Positions 1-6,610 of a stretch of DNA of 15,366 nt are shown here, piece by piece. Position 1 is the stretch's first letter. Every line of letters starts with the position of its first letter. The stretch is taken from assembly GCF_003334315.1 (NCBI RefSeq), contig NZ_QOWR01000075.1; one strand, 5' to 3'. Source of the DNA: Escherichia coli (GTDB lineage: Bacteria > Pseudomonadota > Gammaproteobacteria > Enterobacterales > Enterobacteriaceae). The position numbers and the translations under genes were made by a program. Under the pieces are notes generated by a model, which worked only from the letters and a program-made list of their open reading frames with translations, made no database searches and was not told the origin of the DNA.

Positions 1-105
1 ATTATATCGAATGTGATTACAATCGGTGGCGGCGGCACAGTTGGTGTGGCGGCCTCAGTCCGGAACAATTTGAAAACAAGAACCTCGCTTAGGCCTGTGT
101 CCATA

Positions 106-459
106 TTACGTGGGTAGGATCAGATCAGGAACAGCTTTAACAGTAGCTTCTTGTTGTGTCTTGGCTTCTTGTCTAGCTTCTTCTTGTGGAATATCTACCA
201 CTTGATAGACATTAGAACTTCCTGGTCGTGCATCTTTTATAATTAACCCCATTTCGAGCAATTTCTTAACCCTTTCCTCTGCTGCTCTTGGTGTTATGCC
301 AAAAACATCGCCTATCTTAGCGTAAGAGGGAAATGCACGATCAAACCCTTTCAGATAGCAGTAAAGATTTTTAGCACTATCTGTAAATTTATGCCCGTTT
401 ACTTGGCTTATTTTTAGAATCCACATAGGAACTTTTACAAATTGTTCTTCATTAATCAT
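106..459 (-). CDS. small winged-helix/HTH DNA-binding protein, 117 aa from ATG 459 (the ORF track shows a GTG-extended 125 aa form reaching 483)
   Basis: Open frame 106..483. The ATG at 457-459 is preceded by AAGGAG (467-472) 7 nt upstream, while the GTG at 483 has no SD. The pattern VPMWILK..AKNLYCYLKGF..FPSYAKIGDVFGITPRAAEERVKKLLEMGLI resembles the HTH_36 / initiator-type winged helix of phage and plasmid proteins (from memory, not searched). The tail is acidic and Q-rich. Confidence 0.6.
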   Translation of the reverse strand: MINEEQFVKVPMWILKISQVNGHKFTDSAKNLYCYLKGFDRAFPSYAKIGDVFGITPRAAEERVKKLLEMGLIIKDARPGSSNVYQVVDIPQEEARQEAKTQQEATVKAVPDLILPT

Positions 460-512
460 TAAAAATCTCCTTGATGTAATCACGCTCTATGGCGCTACTA
501 TGGTGATAAAAA

Positions 513-683
513 TCACTTGCTTTTATTTGAGAGTGTTTCAGCCTCTCTTTTCAACATATCAAGAATGTAATCTGTGACAGTGATACGTCTACTTCTGGCT
601 TCTTTAAATAACACCTGAAATACTTCATCAGGAATATGAAAGCAAGTGCGTGGTTGTCTTTTCTTTTCTGTAGTTTCGCTCAT
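513..683 (-). CDS. 56 aa ribbon-helix-helix-like (Arc/CopG/MetJ style) protein, MSETTEKKRQPRTCFHIPDEVFQVLFKEARSRRITVTDYILDMLKREAETLSNKSK
   Basis: Not in the ORF track because it is under 60 aa; I translated it by hand. ATG at 681-683, TGA at 513-515, AAGGAG at 690-695 (6 nt spacer). The basic N-terminus followed by beta-strand-like FHIPDEVF and then two helices is the RHH layout. It lies between two other same-strand genes with short gaps (19 nt to the upstream gene, 53 nt to the downstream one). Confidence 0.55.
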   Translation of the reverse strand: MSETTEKKRQPRTCFHIPDEVFQVLFKEARSRRITVTDYILDMLKREAETLSNKSK

Positions 684-702
684 AGTTTTCTCCTTCTATT
701 CT

Positions 703-891
703 TTACTCTGTTTCAGATTCTTTTTCATTTTTTCTTAATTCATCAATAATCTTGAGTGCTTCATTGAAGCAAGCTGCTCGCTCTGGATAACCTCGACTCC
801 TTGCCATATTACGATTCATTACTATTTGGTGGCGTGTAAGCTCACCTTTTTTAAATGCCGCGACAACGTGTTCCGATGTGAACCATTTCAT
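703..891 (-). CDS. 62 aa hypothetical protein, first gene of the three-gene operon
   Basis: ATG at 889-891 with AAGGAG at 898-903 (6 nt spacer); TAA at 703-705. I recognise no family. The C-terminus is helical and charged. Confidence 0.55.
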   Translation of the reverse strand: MKWFTSEHVVAAFKKGELTRHQIVMNRNMARSRGYPERAACFNEALKIIDELRKNEKESETE

Positions 892-1001
892 AAAAAACTC
901 CTTATTCAGTTAAAAGAAAAACACCTTGCAAGCCTGACGGCTTCAAAGTGCATTGATTTTGATTATTTAGAGAAGAATGTTTTTCTGTCCCTCTAATACC
1001 T

Positions 1002-1030
1002 ATTATTACATATAAAGAAACATTTGTCAA
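1002..1030 (-). promoter_or_regulatory. sigma70-like promoter for the 891->106 operon
   Basis: On the minus strand: TTGACA (1030..1025), 17 nt spacer, AATAAT (1007..1002). This predicts a leader of about 100 nt before the ATG at 891. Confidence 0.45.
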
Positions 1031-1122
1031 TACCTTTTCACAAAAAATCTGATCTTTTTCATGTACTTACATTTTTTCTTAGCAATTCGTGCTCTTCTGT
1101 GTAGTGCTATTCTTCCTTATTG

Positions 1123-1151
1123 TCTAAAACGCTCTAAAACGCGTTCTAACG
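1123..1151 (+). repeat. tandem 10-mer TCTAAAACGC x2 plus a degenerate third copy
   Basis: Perfect copies at 1123-1132 and 1133-1142, with a partial copy TCTAACG at 1145-1151. The related AAAACGCTCT recurs at 1287-1296. Confidence 0.6.
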
Positions 1152-1567
1152 AGGTTTTGATAAAAGCAATACATTCCCTTATGTAATGGCTGTTTAGCTC
1201 GCCAGAGGCTTATTTAAGGGGCTTATTTTGTATTTGTTAGGTATATGAAAAGGTGATGGTAGATATAAGATAGAGAGTCACTTTATAAAACGCTCTGTAA
1301 AGCCCTGTAGTGAGTTTATATATGTAGGCAATGCGTTTCCATTCCCTACCCTGCTTAATGCTGTTAGAGAAGCATTTAGACCCCTTATTTTTAATTACCT
1401 AAAGTATCCTCTATACATTCCTGTTATGAAACACCTCTGAATCCTTCATAAAACACATTATGACGCAAAGAACACTTTTCTAAGGTGATTCCCTTCCTGA
1501 ATGCTGTTTCTTGCGTCAAAGAGCTACACAGAGCTTATAAAGCTATTATTAATAATAAAGTAGACAA

Positions 1568-1620
1568 AGTAAGTAAGATAAGTAAGTAAGATAACTAAGA
1601 TAGATAAGATTAATAAGATC
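1568..1620 (+). repeat. TAAG/TAAGAT microsatellite-like tract
   Basis: Perfect 13 bp tandem AGTAAGTAAGATA at 1568-1580 and 1581-1593. TAAGAT hexamers start at 1574, 1587, 1596, 1605 and 1614 (spacing 13, 9, 9, 9 bp). Confidence 0.75.
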
Positions 1621-1629
1621 AGAATTCTC

Positions 1630-1661
1630 TTTCGGTGTCGCCTCTGGCTTTTCCACCGAAA
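1630..1661. other. 8 bp stem hairpin / dyad (TTTCGGTG ... CACCGAAA, 16 nt loop)
   Basis: Arms at 1630-1637 and 1654-1661 are perfectly complementary. There is no U-tract on either strand, so it is not called a terminator. Confidence 0.4.
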
Positions 1662-1663
1662 AC

Positions 1664-1828
1664 AATTACACAACTACAGAGAATAACGAGAGTTATTAAA
1701 TGTAGAAAGTGGAATTGTATTGAGGCTTAGTGAAATTACACGAGGAAAGCAGAGTGTAATTGAGCTTTAGCCGCTCTCTCTTCGAGTAATTACACAACTA
1801 CAGAGAATAACAGAGTTATTAAATGTAG
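1664..1828 (+). repeat. pair of 42/41 bp direct repeats (1664-1705 and 1788-1828) bracketing an AATTACAC/GTGTAATT inverted pair
   Basis: Both copies read AATTACACAACTACAGAGAATAAC(G)AGAGTTATTAAATGTAG and are identical except for a 1 nt indel. Each contains the dyad AATAAC-N3/4-GTTATT. Between them, AATTACAC (1734-1741) and GTGTAATT (1754-1761) form a perfect 8 bp inverted repeat. Confidence 0.9.
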
Positions 1829-1889
1829 GAGGGTAATTAAGAGTTAGAGAGAGTTAACACATAAGCAATCAGTATGATTGGTTAGGTGA

Positions 1890-2070
1890 TTACTCTTCTG
1901 CGCACAGCGCAATAGTATTTCTTCGTGGGCGTTACCGCCAACGATAGTTACACGAAGAAAGTAACGCTTTGCTTTCGGTGTGAGCGGAACGGGCCAGCCA
2001 CGAAGCCCAAAGGTAGCGGAGTAAGGCTGCTTGCCAGAGAGTGAAGCTAACGCCGGAAGGCAAAAGATCA
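1890..2070. ncRNA. candidate structured RNA (or gene relic): a GC-richer, hairpin-dense patch inside very AT-rich DNA
   Basis: Perfect 10 bp helix TTTCTTCGTG (1918-1927) / CACGAAGAAA (1951-1960), enclosing GGCG-TTAC-CGCC (1928-1939). An alternative pairing is GCGTTAC (1929-1935) with GTAACGC (1961-1967). Other hairpins: TGCGC-ACA-GCGCA (1899-1911), GGGC/GCCC (1991-1994/2005-2008) and TTGCC/GGCAA (2031-2035/2059-2063). The overlapping 75 aa minus-strand ORF has no SD. Strand is undetermined. Confidence 0.3.
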
Positions 2071-2128
2071 TATAAATAAATATATAATATTATAATTTAA
2101 TAAGTAATTTAATAAATGATCTAATAGG

Positions 2129-2262
2129 TAACAGAATTCTGTGGGGGTGTCTAACAGTTTTCTGTGGGGGTGTCTAACAGAATTCTGTTAGGGTGGGGTA
2201 ACAGAATTTTGTTAGGGTAAAAATCTCTTTAAAAGTTAAGATTAACAGAATTCTGTGGGGGG
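2129..2262 (+). repeat. array of 5 dyad sites TAACAG-N4-CTGT(TA), each followed by a G-run
   Basis: Copies at 2129-2147, 2152-2170, 2175-2198, 2199-2218 and 2243-2262 (start spacing 23, 23, 24, 44 bp). The core ACAGAATTCTGT is a perfect 12 bp palindrome, and the copy at 2175 is a perfect 16 bp palindrome, TAACAGAATTCTGTTA. Confidence 0.9.
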
Positions 2263-2325
2263 TAGCTCACAGTGACCTACCCCCTAGTTCACTATGACCT
2301 ACCCCCCTAGGTCACAGTGACCTAT
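2263..2325 (+). repeat. iteron triplet A (22, 23, 18 bp units: TAGCTCACAGTGACCTACCCCC / TAGTTCACTATGACCTACCCCCC / TAGGTCACAGTGACCTAT)
   Basis: Head-to-tail direct repeats at 2263-2284, 2285-2307 and 2308-2325. The preceding G-run and the first unit form the inverted repeat GGGGGTAG ... CTACCCCC. Confidence 0.9.
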
Positions 2326-2383
2326 ATAGTATAAAGAATATTATTTATATTATTTAATTATAGTATTTAATTATAGTATTGGT
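2326..2383. repeat. extremely AT-rich spacer with a perfect 13 bp tandem TATTTAATTATAG x2 (2351-2363, 2364-2376); DUE-like
   Basis: Read directly from the sequence. It is flanked by the iteron and dyad arrays. A second AT-rich tract (2072-2128) carries the 11-mer TAATTTAATAA twice (2093-2103, 2105-2115). Confidence 0.7.
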
Positions 2384-2483
2384 GGAACTCATTTCCTAGG
2401 TAGGTAGGAACTAATTTCCTAAGTAGGTAGGAAACCACTTCCTAGGTTACTTCCTAAATAGATCGGAAATCATTTCCTAGGTG
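2384..2483 (+). repeat. array of 4 dyad sites GGAA-N5-TTCC followed by TAGGT/TAAGT
   Basis: Sites at 2384-2396, 2407-2419, 2430-2442 and 2465-2477 (start spacing 23, 23, 35 bp). There is a lone TTCCTA half-site at 2451-2456. Confidence 0.9.
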
Positions 2484-2501
2484 TTATTTATACTTATCGG
2501 G

Positions 2502-2556
2502 TATCAGTTTTGATAGGGGTATCAGACTTGATAGGGGTAACAGAATTCTGTGGGGG
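2502..2556 (+). repeat. array of 3 dyad-plus-GGGG units (TATCAGTTTTGATAGGGG, TATCAGACTTGATAGGGG, TAACAGAATTCTGTGGGGG)
   Basis: Units at 2502-2519, 2520-2537 and 2538-2556, with an 18 bp period. The TATCA..TGATA arms differ from the TAACAG..CTGTTA arms by symmetric (compensatory) changes in both half-sites. Confidence 0.9.
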
Positions 2557-2619
2557 TAGTTCACTATGACCTACCCCTAGTTCACTGTGAGCTACCCCTA
2601 GTTCACTGTGAGCTACCGT
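2557..2619 (+). repeat. iteron triplet B (3 x 21 bp TAGTTCAC(T/A)(G/A)TGA(G/C)CTACCCC)
   Basis: Units at 2557-2577, 2578-2598 and 2599-2619. They have the same orientation and family as 2263-2325. The module [TAACAGAATTCTGT + G-run + 3 iterons] is therefore duplicated (2243-2325 and 2538-2619). Confidence 0.9.
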
Positions 2620-2711
2620 TACATCCAATCATCTGTCGATGTAACATATCGTTACTACCAACTTTCTTACAAAGAGCATTTCAGATAGCTGAATGTAACC
2701 TCTCGTTACAT
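2618..2711. repeat. four GTTACAT heptamers arranged as two dyads
   Basis: GTTACATC (2618-2625) / GATGTAAC (2638-2645) with a 12 bp spacer. ATGTAAC (2693-2699) / GTTACAT (2705-2711) with a 5 bp spacer. There is an extra CGTTAC at 2650-2655. Confidence 0.8.
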
Positions 2712-2732
2712 CCATTTGTCACATAGCACTCT

Positions 2733-3208
2733 GTGTAATGCCTTTCTATGTGTGTGCCATAATCCCCCTATATTCCCTGTGTAAATCATAGAATAATGCT
2801 CTCTATTCCCTGTGTAATTCCCTACTAAAAATCAATGAAAAAGTAGCTTAAAGTTGCAATTCTTACTTTCTTCACTTTTACATCACTTTCGCAAAGCCTT
2901 GTGTAATGCGGCTTACAGAGCACCATCAGAAATTGTTGGCTAAAAATTATTCTGCTTGTTTCTGAACGAGTTTTCTCGTTTGTGCAAATTTTAAAATTTA
3001 TTTTGTTTTTACAGCCTTATTTCGTGTAATGCGTGGCATAGCAAGCCCTTTTCTTGTGTTGTCAAGACATTTGGCAACGTTCAAACATCTGTTTAGAAAT
3101 GCCAAATTGTTGATCTAACAAATAAACCTGTATAAACAGAACACCATTTAATCTATTCCCCTGTGTATCCATTAGGCATACCAAATGAATACAGCTAAAT
3201 CGTGTAAT
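2733..3208 (+). repeat. field of GTGTAAT-containing motifs, including the perfect 14-mer TATTCCCTGTGTAA x2
   Basis: GTGTAATGC at 2733, 2901 and 3024; GTGTAAT at 3202. TATTCCCTGTGTAA at 2771-2784 and 2804-2817 (33 bp apart). Variant TATTCCCCTGTGTA at 3154-3167. Related ATTCCCTTATGTAAT near 1173-1187. CCCTGTGTA on the minus strand at 4604-4612. Confidence 0.8.
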
Positions 3209-3281
3209 ATTCCGTACCCATAAGGCTTGAAACAGACCAAATGAATACGGTATACTCATTTGCATTTAAGTAGTGCCAAAT
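3069..3281. promoter_or_regulatory. res-like recombinase-binding region (CCAAAT-containing half-sites) upstream of the serine recombinase gene
   Basis: CCAAATGAATAC at 3181-3192 and 3237-3248. An imperfect inverted partner GTATACTCATTTG lies at 3250-3262. TGCCAAAT is at 3100-3107 and 3274-3281, with its complement ATTTGGCA at 3069-3076. The arrangement resembles the multi-subsite res regions next to tnpR-type genes (established layout; the assignment here is inference). Confidence 0.4.
3227..3256 (+). promoter_or_regulatory. sigma70-like promoter of the recombinase gene, overlapped by the repeated half-sites
   Basis: TTGAAA (3227-3232), 18 nt spacer, TATACT (3251-3256). The CCAAATGAATAC repeat lies within the spacer, which suggests autoregulation. 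Confidence 0.45.
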
Positions 3282-3301
3282 CGACACATTAAGAGGATTT
3301 T

Positions 3302-3841
3302 ATGAGCAATATCGGTTATAAGCGTGTGAGCACTGTAGATCAGAACACTGATCGCCAGCTTGCAGGAGTAACTCTCGATAAAGTCTTTGAAGATAAGCTG
3401 TCTGGTAAAGACACTAACCGCCCAGGCTTACAAGCGTGTTTAGCCTATCTGAGAGAAGGCGACACCTTACACGTGCACTCTCTCGACCGTTTAGGACGTA
3501 ACACCTTAGACATCCTTGCTTTAGTTGAACAACTTAATAATCGAGGTGTAATTGTTCGATTTCACAAAGAAGGAATCATTGCAGACATTACAAGCGCGAT
3601 GGGAAAGATGATGCTTACGATGTTGTCGGCAGTTGCAACGTGTGAACGTGAACTGATGTTAGAACGTAAACGAGAAGCGCAAGCCGTCAATCCTACAAAA
3701 CGTGGTAATGGAAAAGCAGTGGATCGAGAAGGTATAAAGAAAGCCCTTTCTGATGGCCTGTCAGTGCGTAAAACCGCCGAGAGCTTTAATGTTGCTCCTT
3801 CAACGGTGCAACGTATCAAGAAGGAAGAAGAGGAGGCGTAA
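3302..3841 (+). CDS. small serine recombinase (resolvase/invertase family), 179 aa
   Basis: N-terminal GYKRVSTVDQNTDRQ carries the catalytic-serine motif (YxRVSTxxQ). DRLGRN and the SAVATCERE helix are present. C-terminal HTH: GLSVRKTAESFNVAPSTVQRIKK. RBS AAGAGGA at 3291-3297. Confidence 0.9.
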   Translation: MSNIGYKRVSTVDQNTDRQLAGVTLDKVFEDKLSGKDTNRPGLQACLAYLREGDTLHVHSLDRLGRNTLDILALVEQLNNRGVIVRFHKEGIIADITSAMGKMMLTMLSAVATCERELMLERKREAQAVNPTKRGNGKAVDREGIKKALSDGLSVRKTAESFNVAPSTVQRIKKEEEEA

Positions 3842-3849
3842 TGCCTCCT
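3831..3849 (+). terminator. hairpin at the recombinase stop codon (AGGAGGC-GTAAT-GCCTCCT)
   Basis: Perfect 7 bp stem overlapping the TAA, followed by TTGATATTTG, which is only a weak U-tract. Confidence 0.4.
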
Positions 3850-4058
3850 TGATATTTGAGAATTGTCGCTGCGTGGACCTGACGGCGCTGATCTTCTCGT
3901 TAAGCGATGATCACGTATGCGCCGATTTCAGAGAAAAAGACAGTAACTGAACTCACTATGAAGGCTAAACGTATCTTTACACTTGATGAAAACGTTCAAA
4001 AAACAACCTAACCCCAAAATTCAACAAATTGCAACACATTGTTTTTAAAAGAAAATTA

Positions 4059-4106
4059 AATCTACATCAAATATTGGTTGACGTAGATTGAGGTGAATAG
4101 TAGACT
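4059..4106 (+). promoter_or_regulatory. sigma70-like promoter with a flanking 7 bp inverted repeat, upstream of the 52 aa ORF
   Basis: TTGACG (4078-4083), 17 nt spacer, TAGACT (4101-4106). AATCTAC (4059-4065) / GTAGATT (4083-4089) brackets the -35. Confidence 0.4.
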
Positions 4107-4182
4107 ATTAGGGTAAATTACCACCCTTGTAACATCATTTAATGCATGTTCTAATCTTCCTATCGTAAAACCGGAGGAAGTT

Positions 4183-4341
4183 ATGCATTTACTTTCAAAA
4201 CATCTTCACACTATTCACTTTCTCGTTATTGATGTATTCGTTGTGGCTATTAGTTACCGCATTTGCATCGCTTCCAGTGAAGAGATGGACGCTGTTGCAA
4301 TTATTGCTCAAGCAATGGCGATATTAACTAAACGACTTTAA
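4183..4341 (+). CDS. 52 aa hydrophobic mini-protein, MHLLSKHLHTIHFLVIDVFVVAISYRICIASSEEMDAVAIIAQAMAILTKRL
   Basis: Translated by hand (below the track cut-off). GGAGG at 4173-4177, 5 nt before the ATG at 4183; TAA at 4339-4341. It has a promoter upstream and a hairpin downstream. The hydrophobic core suggests a membrane peptide. Confidence 0.4.
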   Translation: MHLLSKHLHTIHFLVIDVFVVAISYRICIASSEEMDAVAIIAQAMAILTKRL

Positions 4342-4354
4342 TAATTTCACTATC

Positions 4355-4398
4355 AGGCGCATAAACACATCTTTGATCGCTGGATGTGTTATGCGCCT
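4355..4398. terminator. long hairpin between the convergent mini-ORFs (16 bp stem with one bulge, 11 nt loop)
   Basis: AGGCGCATAAACACATC (4355-4371) pairs with GATGTGTTATGCGCCT (4383-4398). There is no clear U-tract on either strand, so the terminator role is inferred only from its position between the two stop codons (4341 and 4408). Confidence 0.45.
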
Positions 4399-4407
4399 AC
4401 TGGTGAT

Positions 4408-4560
4408 TCAATCCTTAAGCCATTTCAACTCACTAAGGAGTTTTCTTTCTTCGTTCTCTCGTTGCTTTCGCTCTAGCCAGGCTTTTCCCTCTGGCGTAGA
4501 CAGGAACTTACGAGCGTGAATCTTGCGGTTATTACGTTTTATAGCTGCAATGTTTTTCAT
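4408..4560 (-). CDS. 50 aa basic, coiled-coil-like mini-protein, MKNIAAIKRNNRKIHARKFLSTPEGKAWLERKQRENEERKLLSELKWLKD
   Basis: Translated by hand. ATG at 4558-4560, AGAGG at 4568-4572 (7 nt spacer), TGA at 4408-4410. A CCCTGTGTA motif lies about 45 nt upstream, on the same strand. Confidence 0.4.
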   Translation of the reverse strand: MKNIAAIKRNNRKIHARKFLSTPEGKAWLERKQRENEERKLLSELKWLKD

Positions 4561-4744
4561 CGTGTTGCCTCTGTATTCATATGAAAATTAACAAGTTACA
4601 TACTACACAGGGAGACTACGCATAAAACACAATACAAGTAAAGATACATTTTCAAGACAATAGGAGCCATAAAGCGCCTTTGATGGTTATACCAAAAAAT
4701 AAGCGCCGTAGGCGTATCCACTAAAAAGGGCTTTTTCACAAAAG

Positions 4745-5110
4745 CTATGAAGTCTTAGCAGTTCTTCTCTTATCAGGCACCCGTTGTACTCCGGTGGACG
4801 AAACCGTGCTAGAGCTTGATTCTTTCCCGATCAAGTTAGGTTTTGAAGAGGTGGGCTTTAATCCACTATTGCACTTAAAACTCTTCCCATCATTTAGCCT
4901 GTTTATCCTCTGCAACGTCTCACGACGTGTAGCATCATTGGACACCGCGCCAGGTGTGGAACATCTTGCTAAGAGTTTTGGTAGAAGGTTTAGAGACGGT
5001 GGCACGTCTTCCAGCTTCAAAGGAACTTGTTACGAGGTTGAGCCTGGGAACTACTCGCCCATACGTGTTACACTACCAAAGCCCATAACAACGTATAGGC
5101 GTTTGTAAGT
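4745..5110. ncRNA. candidate structured RNA or decayed gene adjacent to the thrW 3' end
   Basis: GC is close to the core genome, unlike its neighbours. Both strands carry long overlapping open frames (4745..5020 minus, 4794..5108 plus) with non-ATG starts and no SD. Many local hairpins: 4813-4837, GAAGAG/CTCTTC 4845-4886 enclosing GTGG/CCAC, ACGTC-TCAC-GACGT 4915-4928, ACACC/GGTGT 4942-4957, AGACG/CGTCT 4994-5009. On the minus strand, a short GC stem plus T6 at about 4695-4725 could terminate a leftward transcript. Confidence 0.3.
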
Positions 5111-5166
5111 GATAACAGAAGATACAATTTCTTAGAGAAGTTAAGCTAAGTTATTGATTTTCTTGA

Positions 5167-5242
5167 TGGTGCCGATAATAGGAGTCGAACCTACGACCTT
5201 CGCATTACGAATGCGCTGCTCTACCAACTGAGCTATATCGGC
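5167..5242 (-). tRNA. thrW: tRNA-Thr (anticodon CGU)
   Basis: The reverse complement reads GCCGATATAGCTCAGTTGGTAGAGCAGCGCATTCGTAATGCGAAGGTCGTAGGTTCGACTCCTATTATCGGCACCA. It is 76 nt with an encoded CCA, a CGT anticodon in the loop and a GGTTCGA T-arm. Confidence 0.97.
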
Positions 5243-5287
5243 CCTGAAAGGACATGTTCACGAACGTGAATCACGGTGGACAAGGTT

Positions 5288-5351
5288 AAAACTAACCGGG
5301 CGATGCGTCAATGGCCTTGTGAATCAAATGGCTACTTTTGCATCACCCGGT
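5288..5351 (-). terminator. long-loop hairpin plus T-run downstream of proA, overlapping the likely thrW promoter region
   Basis: ACCGGGCGATGC (5295-5306) pairs with GCATCACCCGGT (5340-5351), with one G-U. On the minus strand it is followed by TAGTTTTAA. Confidence 0.35.
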
Positions 5352-5356
5352 TTTAT

Positions 5357-6610
5357 TTACGCACGAATGGTGTAATCACCAATGCCGATCCACTTGTAAG
5401 TGGTCAGTGCTTCCAGCCCCATTGGGCCACGCGCGTGGAGTTTTTGTGTGCTTACCGCCACTTCCGCACCCAGACCAAACTGGCCGCCGTCGGTAAAACG
5501 CGTAGAGGCGTTAACGTAAACAGCGGACGAATCCACTTCGTTAACAAAACGCTGGGCGTTGCGCATATCGCGGGTCAGGATCGCATCGGAGTGTTGTGTG
5601 CCGTGTTCACGAATATGGGCGATGGCATCGTCAAGATCGCTGACGATTTTGACGTTCAAATCTAATGACAGAAACTCATCGTCATACTCTTCGGCTTTAA
5701 CAGCAACCACCTTCGCAGGGCCTGCCTGCAACTGCGCCAGTGCAGCTGCATCTGCGTGTAATGTCACGCCGCTTTCCGCCATTTGTTTGCTTAATGCGGG
5801 CAGGAAGCTATCGGCGATGTTTTTATTCACCAGCAACGTTTCAACCGTATTACATGTGCTCGGACGCTGAGTTTTCGCGTTGACGATCACTTTTAATGCT
5901 TCAGCGATCTCTACACTTTCATCAACGTAAATATGGCATACGCCTATACCACCTGTGATCACCGGGATTGTCGACTGTTCACGGCACAGTTTATGCAAAC
6001 CAGCGCCACCACGCGGGATCAGCATGTCGATGTATTTATCCATACGCAGCATTTCACTGACCAGCGCACGGTCAGGATTATCAATCGCCTGCACGGCACC
6101 CGCCGGTAAGCCACAGGATTTCAGGGCGTCCTGAATCACCGCCACCGTTGCCGCGTTAGTGCGACAGGTTTCTTTGCCACCACGCAGGATCACCGCATTA
6201 CCGGTTTTCAGGCACAGCGAAGCGACATCAACCGTCACGTTCGGGCGCGCTTCATAAATCACGCCAATAACCCCCAGCGGTACGCGACGACGCTCAAGAC
6301 GCAGGCCGCTGTCCAGTACGCCGCCATCGATTACCTGCCCCACCGGATCGGCGAGGTTACACACCTGGCGTACATCGTCGGCAATGCCTTTCAGCCGTGC
6401 GGGCGTCAGTGCCAGACGGTCAAGCATCGCTTCGCTAAGGCCATTGGCTCGCGCGTCAGCAACATCCTGGGCGTTAGCGTTGAGGATGATTTCGCTTTGT
6501 GCTTCCAGTTCATCGGCGATTTTTTCCAGCACGCGATTTTTTTCGCGGCTGGAGAGTTGCGCTAATTTATACGAGGCTTGCTTCGCGGCAATGCCCATTT
6601 GTTCCAGCAT
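5357..6610 (-). CDS. proA: gamma-glutamyl phosphate reductase
   Basis: 417 aa; sequence recognised as E. coli ProA ([21 protein letters not shown]...). It follows proB with an 11 nt gap. Confidence 0.97.

What the first reader, a model, noticed from the sequence alone, without database searches (positions are those of the whole stretch)
3069..3849. Orphan resolvase-type serine recombinase with an autoregulatory res-like leader in a tRNA-integrated element
The 179 aa protein has the catalytic YxRVSTxxQ motif and a C-terminal HTH, the size class of resolvases and invertases rather than large serine integrases. Its predicted -35/-10 (3227-3256) is interleaved with repeated CCAAATGAATAC / TGCCAAAT half-sites spread over about 210 bp, as in res sites where the recombinase represses its own gene.

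A multimer-resolution system makes sense only for a circular replicating form. This supports the idea that the island is, or was, a plasmid-like or satellite replicon. It also leaves open inversion or excision roles.
Basis: partly seen in the sequence, partly recalled or inferred. Interest (0 to 1): 0.5.

Follow-up and report, generated by a model that had tools for sequence, protein, structure and literature searches.

The report
Resolvase and res site in satellite
A small DNA-cutting enzyme gene and its own 123-bp docking site form an ordinary "unlink joined DNA circles" module, carried as a swappable part of a phage-satellite-like island next to a tRNA gene in E. coli.

Summary
The ORF (3302-3841, 179 aa) is a real, intact small serine recombinase. 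It aligns over its full length with gamma-delta/Tn3 resolvase, and dN/dS among E. coli alleles is 0.0-0.2.

The repeats upstream are real but are not spread over 210 bp. Six half-sites (consensus CCWWWTSRNYAC) form three inverted pairs in 3165-3287, spaced 28-21-35-3-36 bp, against 28-22-34-5-25 in Tn3 res. The best sigma-70-like promoter lies inside sites II/III. The same ungapped layout recurs in relatives whose proteins are 69-83% identical, and half-site columns are better conserved than spacers. The two distal TGCCAAAT copies lie outside the module.

The host element is a 12.75-kb island at thrW with att repeats, a tyrosine integrase, capsid- and tail-like genes, an O-like initiator and iterons. 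In this window an IS3 cuts the initiator gene.

In otherwise 97%-identical satellites, the same slot holds a dif/cer-like XerCD site in place of res plus the gene. This supports a multimer-resolution role. No transposase partner or inverted partner site was found.

This is a new member of a known kind. All evidence is computational.

The parts
3165..3192 (.). res site I, the predicted crossover site: GTATCCATTAGG-CATA-CCAAATGAATAC. It is 12+4+12 = 28 bp, with the central AT at 3178-3179.
   Evidence: Half-sites found (2 and 0 mismatches). The GGCATACC core is conserved in L086, L087 and L109/L110. The geometry equals Tn3 site I (PMC9943657 and my own knowledge).
3214..3248 (.). res site II (accessory): GTACCCATAAGG-11 bp-CCAAATGAATAC, 35 bp. 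The spacer carries the -35 hexamer.
   Evidence: The right half is a perfect copy. The weak left half changes in step with the other half-sites in L086, L087 and L106.
3252..3287 (.). res site III (accessory): ATACTCATTTGC-12 bp-CCAAATCGACAC, 36 bp. It overlaps the -10 hexamer.
   Evidence: ACTCATTTGCAT is invariant in four lineages.
3227..3256 (+). Promoter-like site TTGAAA-18-TATACT, embedded in sites II/III.
   Evidence: 10/12, best in the region. Both hexamer positions are conserved in the relatives.
3291..3297 (+). Shine-Dalgarno-like AAGAGGA, 4 nt before the ATG.
   Evidence: Read from the sequence.
3302..3841 (+). Small serine recombinase gene, 179 aa: catalytic domain plus C-terminal HTH.
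   Evidence: Purifying selection.
3831..3849 (.). GC-rich hairpin (AGGAGGC-GTAAT-GCCTCCT) over the stop codon; a possible terminator.
   Evidence: (I11). The tool scored it on the minus strand, so function is not established.
3172..3858 (.). The exchangeable cassette (res plus gene). In sister satellites a 386-bp segment with a Xer-like site replaces it.
   Evidence: Breakpoints.
5166..5242 (-). Context: tRNA-Thr(CGT) thrW (5167-5242) and the 20-bp att repeat ATGGTGCCGATAATAGGAGT (5166-5185), which is the right end of the island.
2129..2617 (.). Context: several families of tandem iterons with AT-rich stretches; the probable replication origin of the island.
123..483 (-). Context: the 5' part of the O-like replication initiator gene (HTH_36), truncated by an IS3 end at 1-122.

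Best explanation
This is a res/resolvase multimer-resolution module carried as exchangeable cargo by a thrW-integrated, phage-satellite-like replicon.

Proposed mechanism:
- Dimers of the 179-aa serine recombinase bind three inverted-repeat subsites: I at 3165-3192, II at 3214-3248 and III at 3252-3287.
- When the excised element replicates as a circle and forms head-to-tail multimers, two directly repeated res sites synapse through the accessory sites.
- Ser10 cuts at the centre of site I (AT, 3178-3179). Subunit rotation and religation then give monomer circles.
- Occupancy of sites II/III also covers the gene's own promoter (3227-3256), so the protein represses itself.

Shown by computation:
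- the protein class and its intact catalytic residues;
- purifying selection;
- the six-half-site anatomy and its conservation in relatives;
- the promoter position;
- the replicon-like nature of the island;
- the swap with a Xer-like site.

Inferred, not shown: binding, the crossover point, the resolution reaction, autorepression, and that the island actually replicates as a circle. In this window the initiator gene is cut by IS3, so here the module is probably idle.
For: - **Protein class.** Pfam Resolvase 7.5e-34. Full-length match to gamma-delta resolvase (4e-29) and Tn3 resolvase.
- **Catalytic residues.** Y6, R8, S10, R40, R63, R66, E115 and R116 are invariant in ten family members.
- **Selection.** dN/dS is 0.0-0.2 with dS up to 0.28. 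Only 7 of 123 res columns vary among the same alleles.
- **Half-site cluster.** Five matches in 123 bp.
- **Conserved layout.** The ungapped 28-21-35-3-36 layout is shared with L086, L087 and L106. Half-site columns are 81-83% identical against 51-53% elsewhere (p = 3e-4 and 5e-4).
- **Site specificity varies with the protein.** More distant relatives have their own repeated motifs in the same place.
- **Promoter.** It lies inside res.
- **Plasmid relatives.** The closest relatives are on 2-11 kb contigs. These include 2.0-kb circular plasmids whose only ORF is the recombinase.
- **Host island.** att repeats, integrase, O-like initiator and iterons.
- **Swap with a Xer-like site.** In satellites 97% identical on both flanks, res plus the gene (678 bp) is replaced by 386 bp carrying AGTGCATATTA-CGATTA-TTATGTTAAAT. 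The XerD arm matches dif at 11/11. The same criteria gave one unrelated hit in 1.19 Mb.
- **Frequency.** The recombinase-less segment that carries the site in all five loci read occurs in 332-428 of 5426 genomes. This res type is in about 155, and a second res type in about 294.
Against: - No experiment exists; every site assignment is by sequence.
- Site III is 36 bp, against 25 bp in Tn3. The left half of site II is weak, with 4 mismatches to the best copy.
- The R-interface residues of Tn3 resolvase (R2, K54, E56) are not conserved (my reading of the alignment), so the synapse may differ.
- By sequence alone the protein is about as close to Gin invertase (95 bits) as to gamma-delta resolvase (105 bits).
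- The cassette is absent from many sister satellites, so it is not essential.
- Satellites packaged from concatemers would not obviously need monomers.
- The Xer-like site has only 7/11 matches in its XerC arm, and its function is also untested.
- No extrachromosomal copy of the island was seen: 865 of the 866 matches to the 2800-4100 query are chromosomal. The one match on a plasmid record was not identified; L004 shows that a related satellite can sit integrated in an IncF plasmid.
Confidence: 0.65

Rival explanations
1. It is a DNA invertase (Hin/Gin/Cin/Pin type) that flips a neighbouring segment, for example a promoter or a tail-related gene of the island.
For: PHROG 125 is named 'DNA invertase' (6e-55). 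Gin scores 95 bits, close to the 105 bits of gamma-delta resolvase. The island carries tail-like genes.
Against: No second crossover-type site was found anywhere in the window or in the intact island L005, and no long inverted repeats flank any segment. An array of three dimer sites next to the gene is the resolvase arrangement; invertase sites are single 26-bp sites. All sampled E. coli copies are collinear.
Confidence: 0.05
2. It is the remnant tnpR/res of a Tn3-family transposon and served cointegrate resolution. It is now stranded in the island.
For: The layout most resembles Tn3-type res (PMC9943657). Relatives at 47-50% identity are annotated tnpR in some plasmids and P1-like phages.
Against: No Tn3-type transposase ORF or domain occurs in the window or in sister islands; the only transposase DNA is an unrelated IS3 end. 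The cassette is 678 bp with sharp borders at res and at the gene's end. It is under strong purifying selection within satellites. The closest relatives are on small plasmids that have no transposase.
Confidence: 0.05
3. The protein now acts mainly as a DNA-binding regulator or as an interference factor, for example repressing island or helper genes or cutting helper DNA. Recombination would be secondary or lost.
For: The binding sites overlap a promoter. The slot is a variable cargo region, as in the accessory regions of other satellites (general knowledge of satellites).
Against: All catalytic residues are invariant across the family, which a pure repressor would not need. A complete site I with the 28-bp geometry is kept. 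There is no match to any PADLOC defence model. The allelic alternative in the slot is a recombination site, not a defence gene.
Confidence: 0.12
4. The recombinase moves its own cassette. On this view res plus the gene is a minimal integrative circle that inserts into and leaves the satellite slot.
For: The left border of the cassette falls inside half-site I-L, 7 bp from the predicted crossover. Related recombinase-only 2.0-kb circles exist. Alleles of different specificity occupy the same slot.
Against: The border is not at the crossover point. No hybrid site was recognised at the right border (3858) on reading the sequence there. The 2-kb circles that sit inside large plasmids are flanked by two direct IS26 copies, which points to capture by IS26 and not by the serine recombinase. 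Resolvases with accessory sites strongly favour intramolecular deletion (established knowledge; PMC9943657).
Confidence: 0.06

Closest known systems
Tn3 / gamma-delta resolvase with its 114-bp res site
   Same: - Protein size and fold, with a full-length alignment at 4e-29.
- Three inverted-repeat dimer sites next to the gene.
- Site I of 28 bp, an I-II gap of 21 bp against 22, and site II of 35 bp against 34.
- The promoter lies inside res, which predicts autoregulation.
   Different: - No transposase and no transposon ends.
- Site III is 36 bp, against 25.
- Half-site sequence CCWWWTSRNYAC, against TGTCYR...
- R-interface residues are not conserved.
- About 38% protein identity only.
Unnamed resolvases of small enterobacterial plasmids (pDETEC86 of 2.0 kb, pPSS-11_2 of 5.8 kb, 4.4-kb circular contigs L106/L107)
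   Same: These are the closest relatives by sequence, at 56-69% identity. A repeated half-site array lies directly upstream of the gene. L106 has exactly the same 28-21-35-3-36 layout.
   Different: They sit on autonomous small circles, not on an integrated island. Their half-site sequences differ. None has been characterised experimentally as far as I could find.
Sin / beta-recombinase res sites (two subsites plus an HU/IHF site)
   Same: They are plasmid-borne resolvases used for multimer resolution. The 63%-identical L004-type cassette seems to use direct-repeat half-sites in its gene-proximal accessory site, as Sin site II does (PMC9943657).
   Different: The window's site has three inverted subsites and no obvious architectural-protein site. 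Sin matches more weakly, at 66 bits.
ColE1 cer / chromosomal dif with host XerCD
   Same: The proposed job is the same: returning multimers to monomers. A dif/cer-like site occupies the same slot in sister satellites.
   Different: That system uses host-encoded tyrosine recombinases and no element-encoded enzyme. The mechanism and the site are unrelated.
Hin/Gin/Cin/Pin DNA invertases
   Same: Same protein superfamily and size. Gin scores 95 bits and the PHROG name is 'DNA invertase'.
   Different: There is no pair of inverted crossover sites and no invertible segment. The multi-subsite array is not an invertase feature.

Membership tests
Small serine recombinases (resolvase/invertase family) | N-terminal catalytic domain with the Ser nucleophile and the conserved Arg/Asp/Glu set | tested here: met
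   PF00239 at 7.5e-34. S10, R8, R40, R63, R66, E115 and R116 are invariant. The protein aligns with gamma-delta resolvase from residue 2.
Small serine recombinases (resolvase/invertase family) | C-terminal helix-turn-helix DNA-binding domain; total length about 180-200 aa | tested here: met
   179 aa. The alignment with the gamma-delta resolvase DNA-binding domain runs to residue 175. Pfam HTH_7/HTH_38 hits are below the curated cut-off.
Resolvase systems with a multi-subsite res (Tn3-type) | Three dimer-binding subsites, each an inverted pair of half-sites, next to the gene | tested here: met
   Six half-sites in 3165-3287. The layout is conserved without gaps in relatives at 69-83% identity, with half-sites preferentially conserved. 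Shown by sequence only; binding was not tested.
Resolvase systems with a multi-subsite res (Tn3-type) | Subsite lengths of 28, 34 and 25 bp with gaps of 22 and 5 bp | tested here: inconclusive
   Observed 28-21-35-3-36. Sites I and II and both gaps fit within 1-2 bp; site III is 11 bp longer (PMC9943657).
Resolvase systems with a multi-subsite res (Tn3-type) | Resolution of directly repeated res sites on supercoiled DNA | not testable with these tools
   Needs an in vivo or in vitro recombination assay.
Tn3-family transposon (tnpR as part of a transposon) | Adjacent Tn3-type transposase and 38-bp terminal inverted repeats | tested here: not met
   No such ORF or domain in the window or in sister islands. 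No long inverted repeats were found.
DNA invertases (Hin/Gin/Cin/Pin) | Two crossover sites in inverted orientation flanking an invertible segment | tested here: not met
   There is only one site-I-like palindrome. There are no further clustered half-sites in the window or in L005.
DNA invertases (Hin/Gin/Cin/Pin) | Fis-dependent enhancer within or near the gene | not tested
   No reliable sequence test is available here.
Large serine integrases | More than 400 aa, with recombinase and zinc-ribbon domains after the catalytic domain | tested here: not met
   179 aa. Only partial, far-below-cut-off hits to the XisF and Ccr models.
Phage satellites (PICI-like islands), for the host element | Small island with an integrase and att repeats at a conserved site | tested here: met
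   In L005, a 20-bp direct repeat bounds 12.75 kb. The tyrosine integrase lies at the far end and thrW at the near end. Island-free genomes resume homology at 5163-5166.
Phage satellites (PICI-like islands), for the host element | Own replication module, and few or no complete virion gene sets | tested here: met
   The island has an O-like initiator (PHROG 270/391) and iteron arrays. Its only virion-related genes are one capsid-protein homologue, one tape-measure-like gene and one Dit-like gene.
Phage satellites (PICI-like islands), for the host element | Induction and packaging by a helper phage | not testable with these tools
   No helper was identified. The capsid protein has only remote phage matches at 24-26% identity.

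The most novel reading that the evidence does not exclude
This family of E. coli satellites has a dedicated, exchangeable 'monomerisation slot'. It is filled by one of at least two res/resolvase cassettes of different specificity, or by a host-XerCD site. That would imply the satellites pass through, or can persist in, a plasmid-like circular state. In that state unit-length circles would matter for inheritance or for packaging into small capsids. It would also mean resolution modules are traded between small plasmids and phage satellites.
Probability: 0.35. Interest if true: 0.5.

Novelty: new member of a known kind. Interest (0 to 1): 0.3.

Why it matters
The module itself is textbook biology: a resolvase with a three-subsite res that also shuts off its own promoter. 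Its setting adds three modest points.

- It gives a clean natural comparison. In near-identical satellites the same slot carries an element-encoded serine resolvase system, a second one with different half-sites, or a Xer-type site. This points to a plasmid-like stage in a satellite family that, as far as I could find, has not been described.
- It provides resolvase/res pairs with new DNA specificities. These could serve as orthogonal recombination tools.
- It links small cryptic enterobacterial plasmids and phage satellites as partners in module exchange.

Tried and rejected
- **Rfam scans.** Scans of 1-5400 and of the small plasmids found nothing but the tRNA.
- **Defence models.** PADLOC gave no hits for the recombinase or its neighbours. 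Pfam gave nothing above threshold for the neighbouring small ORFs.
- **Genome and viral scans.** The one-genome-per-species scan returned near-identical copies plus relatives at 65% identity or less. The viral scan returned near-identical copies plus relatives at 55% or less. Neither gave the 66-95% range needed for site comparison. Those relatives came from exact look-ups instead. One look-up found nothing.
- **Self-integrating circles.** I considered that the 2.0-kb recombinase-only circles integrate by themselves. I set this aside because the copy I inspected in a large plasmid is flanked by two direct IS26 copies.
- **Distal TGCCAAAT copies.** I considered the copies at 3069 and 3100 as a fourth subsite. 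I rejected this because they persist in recombinase-less satellites and have no counterpart in relatives.
- **Inverted repeats.** I looked for inverted repeats or a second site that could define an invertible or excisable segment. None was found.
- **De novo k-mer motif search.** It was only partly informative. Manual reading anchored on the conserved AAGGCTTG block was needed.
- **Literature.** Searches for this satellite family or for resolvases in phage satellites found nothing relevant.
- **Phylogeny.** No formal tree against named resolvase and invertase subfamilies was built. Pairwise scores show the protein about equally distant from Tn3-type resolvases and Gin.
Full report
**Where the window comes from**

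The window is E. coli chromosome. tRNA-Thr(CGT) thrW lies at 5167-5242 on the minus strand. It is followed by proA, proB, phoE, crl, frsA and gpt. Everything left of about 5166 is a low-GC island of 34-44% GC, against 45-59% to the right. Genomes without an island resume homology at 5163-5166.

**The gene**

- ORF 3302-3841 (+) encodes 179 aa beginning MSNIGYKRVSTVDQ.
- It matches Pfam Resolvase at 7.5e-34. The HTH models score only below their cut-offs.
- It aligns from residue 2 to 175 with gamma-delta resolvase (4e-29) and Tn3 resolvase, so the C-terminal DNA-binding domain is present. Gin invertase scores only slightly lower, at 95 against 105 bits.
- NCBIfam gives only partial, far-below-threshold hits to large serine recombinases. 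It is therefore the small resolvase/invertase class.
- In an alignment of ten family members, Y6, R8, S10, R40, R63, R66, E115, R116, E121 and R122 are invariant.
- Among eight E. coli alleles, dN/dS is 0.0-0.2 with dS up to 0.28. The gene is maintained by selection.

**The upstream repeats**

Two perfect copies of CCAAATGAATAC lie at 3181 and 3237. Allowing up to 3 mismatches gives five copies in 3165-3287, against 13 in the remaining 15.2 kb. I calculate about 0.1 expected and P of about 1e-7.

Reading the sequence with orientation, and adding one weaker copy, gives three inverted pairs:

| Subsite | Coordinates | Sequence | Length |
|---|---|---|---|
| I | 3165-3192 | GTATCCATTAGG-CATA-CCAAATGAATAC | 28 bp |
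| gap | 3193-3213 | | 21 bp |
| II | 3214-3248 | GTACCCATAAGG-11 bp-CCAAATGAATAC | 35 bp |
| gap | 3249-3251 | | 3 bp |
| III | 3252-3287 | ATACTCATTTGC-12 bp-CCAAATCGACAC | 36 bp |

The ATG follows 14 nt later. Tn3/gamma-delta res is 114 bp with three dimer sites. [quoted passage not shown] From my own knowledge this corresponds to 28-22-34-5-25. Site I, site II and both gaps therefore fit within 1-2 bp. Site III is 11 bp longer here.

**Is the layout real?**

- Relatives with 82-83% identical proteins (L086, L087) and a 69% identical one on a 4.4-kb circularly permuted contig (L106) can be laid over the window's 123 bp without a single gap.
- Half-site columns are 83%, 81% and 69% identical to the window. 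The other columns are 53%, 51% and 51% identical (Fisher p = 3e-4, 5e-4 and 0.03).
- Half-sites change in concert within a lineage. In L086..ATCGCTAC appears in I-R and III-R and ..TTCGATAC in II-L. L106 has ..TGAACAC throughout. This gives the consensus CCWWWTSRNYAC.
- Among the E. coli alleles only 7 of 123 columns vary, although synonymous sites in the adjoining gene differ by 8-28%.
- More distant relatives at 56-63% identity carry different repeated motifs in the same place. These are GTAGTGAT.. in L004/L108, GTATCGAT.. in L003 and GTAGTAATATAC.. in L002. Their accessory layouts differ in part.

**Promoter**

The best sigma-70-like site in 2900-4500 is TTGAAA-18-TATACT at 3227-3256, scoring 10/12. 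The number of such sites in the region is not above shuffles. The -35 lies in the site II spacer and the -10 straddles the II/III junction. Both positions are conserved in the four lineages; GGCTTG and ACTCATTTGCAT are invariant. Autorepression by site occupancy follows from this geometry, but it is an inference.

**What is not part of it**

Relatives show no extra half-sites upstream of site I.

**The host element**

- An intact sister island (L005, strain GPEC128-620) is bounded by the 20-bp direct repeat ATGGTGCCGATAATAGGAGT. That is window 5166-5185, overlapping the 3' end of thrW. The island is 12.75 kb.
- It encodes a tyrosine integrase, a Dit-like tail protein, a tape-measure-like protein, an E/HK97-type capsid protein homologue and an O-like replication initiator.
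- These are followed by 2.4 kb without credible ORFs. That stretch holds several different tandem iteron families and AT-rich stretches (window 2129-2617). The recombinase and thrW come next.
- This is the anatomy of a phage satellite with its own replicon. I found no paper describing this family.
- In the window, an IS3 end (1-122) truncates the initiator gene. This copy is therefore probably no longer able to replicate.

**The cassette is exchangeable**

- Of 366 genomes that match 3040-3320, 156 cover it fully. Every sampled partial match stops at window 3171-3174, inside half-site I-L.
- L005 and the recombinase-less L089 (O103 strain RM8385, also at thrW) are 97% identical on both sides. 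Between the same two points L005 has 678 bp, which is res plus the gene, and L089 has 386 bp.
- Those 386 bp contain AGTGCATATTA-CGATTA-TTATGTTAAAT. Against E. coli dif, GGTGCGCATAA-TGTATA-TTATGTTAAAT (sequence as in PMC3025954), the XerD arm matches at 11/11 and the XerC arm at 7/11, with a 6-bp centre.
- The site is present in all five recombinase-less loci inspected. One shows a change in the central region only. It is absent from the window, L001, L004 and L005.
- The same criteria gave one unrelated hit in 1.19 Mb of held sequence.
- The recombinase-less segment that carries the site in all five loci read occurs in 332-428 of 5426 genomes. The window-type res cassette occurs in about 155. 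A second cassette with a 63%-identical recombinase and other half-sites occurs in about 294.
- Two unrelated recombination systems whose common known use is converting multimers to monomers thus alternate at one locus. I regard this as the strongest indirect argument for the function.

**Relatives elsewhere**

- In the plasmid collection the best hits, at 52-56% identity, include circular plasmids of 1.95-2.0 kb whose only annotated ORF is the recombinase. Others are plasmids of 5.5-5.8 kb.
- In the large protein collection, most relatives at 55-83% identity sit on contigs of 2-11 kb.
- The 2-kb circle also occurs whole inside a large plasmid between two direct IS26 copies. I read that as IS26-mediated capture, not as serine-recombinase integration.
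- Phage hits are all below 50% identity.

**Alternatives considered**

- **Invertase.** No second crossover-like site and no inverted repeats define a segment in the window or in the whole sister island. Sampled genomes are collinear.
- **Transposon remnant.** There is no Tn3-type transposase and there are no terminal repeats.
- **Defence or regulatory cargo.** There are no PADLOC hits, and the catalytic residues are invariant.
- **Self-mobile cassette.** The left border lies 7 bp from the predicted crossover, not at it. I recognised no hybrid site at the right border.

**Verdict**

The module is a res/resolvase system of the known three-subsite kind, most probably for resolving multimers of the excised, replicating satellite, with built-in autoregulation.

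It is a new member of a known kind in a setting that seems undescribed. Binding, the cleavage position, the resolution reaction, autorepression and the circular replicating state are all inferred and need the experiments listed.

Noticed in passing
window 2129-2617 (AT-rich stretches at 2070-2131 and 2338-2380): Several different tandem iteron families lie side by side (units of 23, 23, 23, 18 and 21 bp, 2.6-3.6 copies each). Some recur in inverted orientation (2259-2279 against 2578-2598). This is probably the satellite's origin. So many distinct iteron sets in one origin is unusual.
   Followed up: partly
window 1-122 and 123-483: An IS3 end, 100% identical to IS3 copies elsewhere, truncates the O-like replication initiator gene (HTH_36). 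The island in this genome is probably replication-defective.
   Followed up: partly
window 2739, 2776, 2808, 2897, 3022, 3159, 3200: Seven direct copies of (C)TGTGTAAT run from the end of the iteron region into res. One abuts site I and one lies in the I-II gap. The motif also occurs in the Xer-type segment (L089, about 9466). What binds it is unknown.
   Followed up: no
L089 9276-9303, L090 9277-9304, L112 437-464, L113 431-458, L114 443-470: A dif/cer-like XerCD site, AGTGCATATTA-CGATTA-TTATGTTAAAT, lies in the recombinase-less satellites, in the slot that holds res plus the recombinase in the window. The surrounding segment is present in 332-428 of 5426 E. coli genomes.
   Followed up: yes
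L002 (NZ_CP116175, 1985 bp); also NZ_AP027492 and NZ_CP130129; L111 3001-4993: Circular 'plasmids' of 1.95-2.0 kb carry a 56%-identical serine recombinase as their only ORF. They have no recognisable rep gene or Rfam replication RNA, and one strand is very T-poor. The same 2 kb sits between two direct IS26 copies in the 104-kb plasmid pYUSHP31-1; a near-full-length match in a 201-kb plasmid (NZ_ON390814) was not inspected.
   Followed up: partly
L106 / L107 (4.44-kb metagenome contigs, circularly permuted): A small circular element carries a 69%-identical recombinase and exactly the same res layout. It also has ORFs of 391, 93-97, 146 and 122 aa. The three scanned (391, 146 and 122 aa) have no Pfam match; the 93-97 aa product has only a weak precomputed HTH_23 hit. 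The type of replicon is unknown.
   Followed up: no
window 3858-4416: This is a further variable sub-segment, absent from L005 and L089. It has a 12-bp-stem palindrome (4059-4089), a promoter-like site (4078-4106) and a 52-aa ORF (4183-4341) annotated as hypothetical in strain C2.
   Followed up: no
window 4408-4560 (-): A 50-aa basic ORF (MKNIAAIKRNNRKIH...) is annotated in the thrW-integrated sister satellites and in the IncF-borne copy (WP_000788776 to WP_000788778). It has no family match.
   Followed up: no
window 1664-1705 / 1788-1828: An exact 24+17-bp direct repeat is spaced 124 bp apart in the ORF-poor region between the small regulator-like genes and the iterons.
   Followed up: no
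window 3069-3140: Two TGCCAAAT copies in opposite orientation (3069 minus, 3100 plus) and a 24-nt imperfect palindrome (3088-3140) are retained in recombinase-less satellites. They could be accessory sequence for the Xer-type module or something unrelated.
   Followed up: partly
L004 (IncF plasmid pEND_Eco 19019-1, 35178-51723): A copy of the same kind of satellite, with the second recombinase allele and an IS3-family insertion, is integrated in a conjugative IncF plasmid next to sopAB. These satellites are therefore not confined to chromosomal tRNA sites.
   Followed up: no
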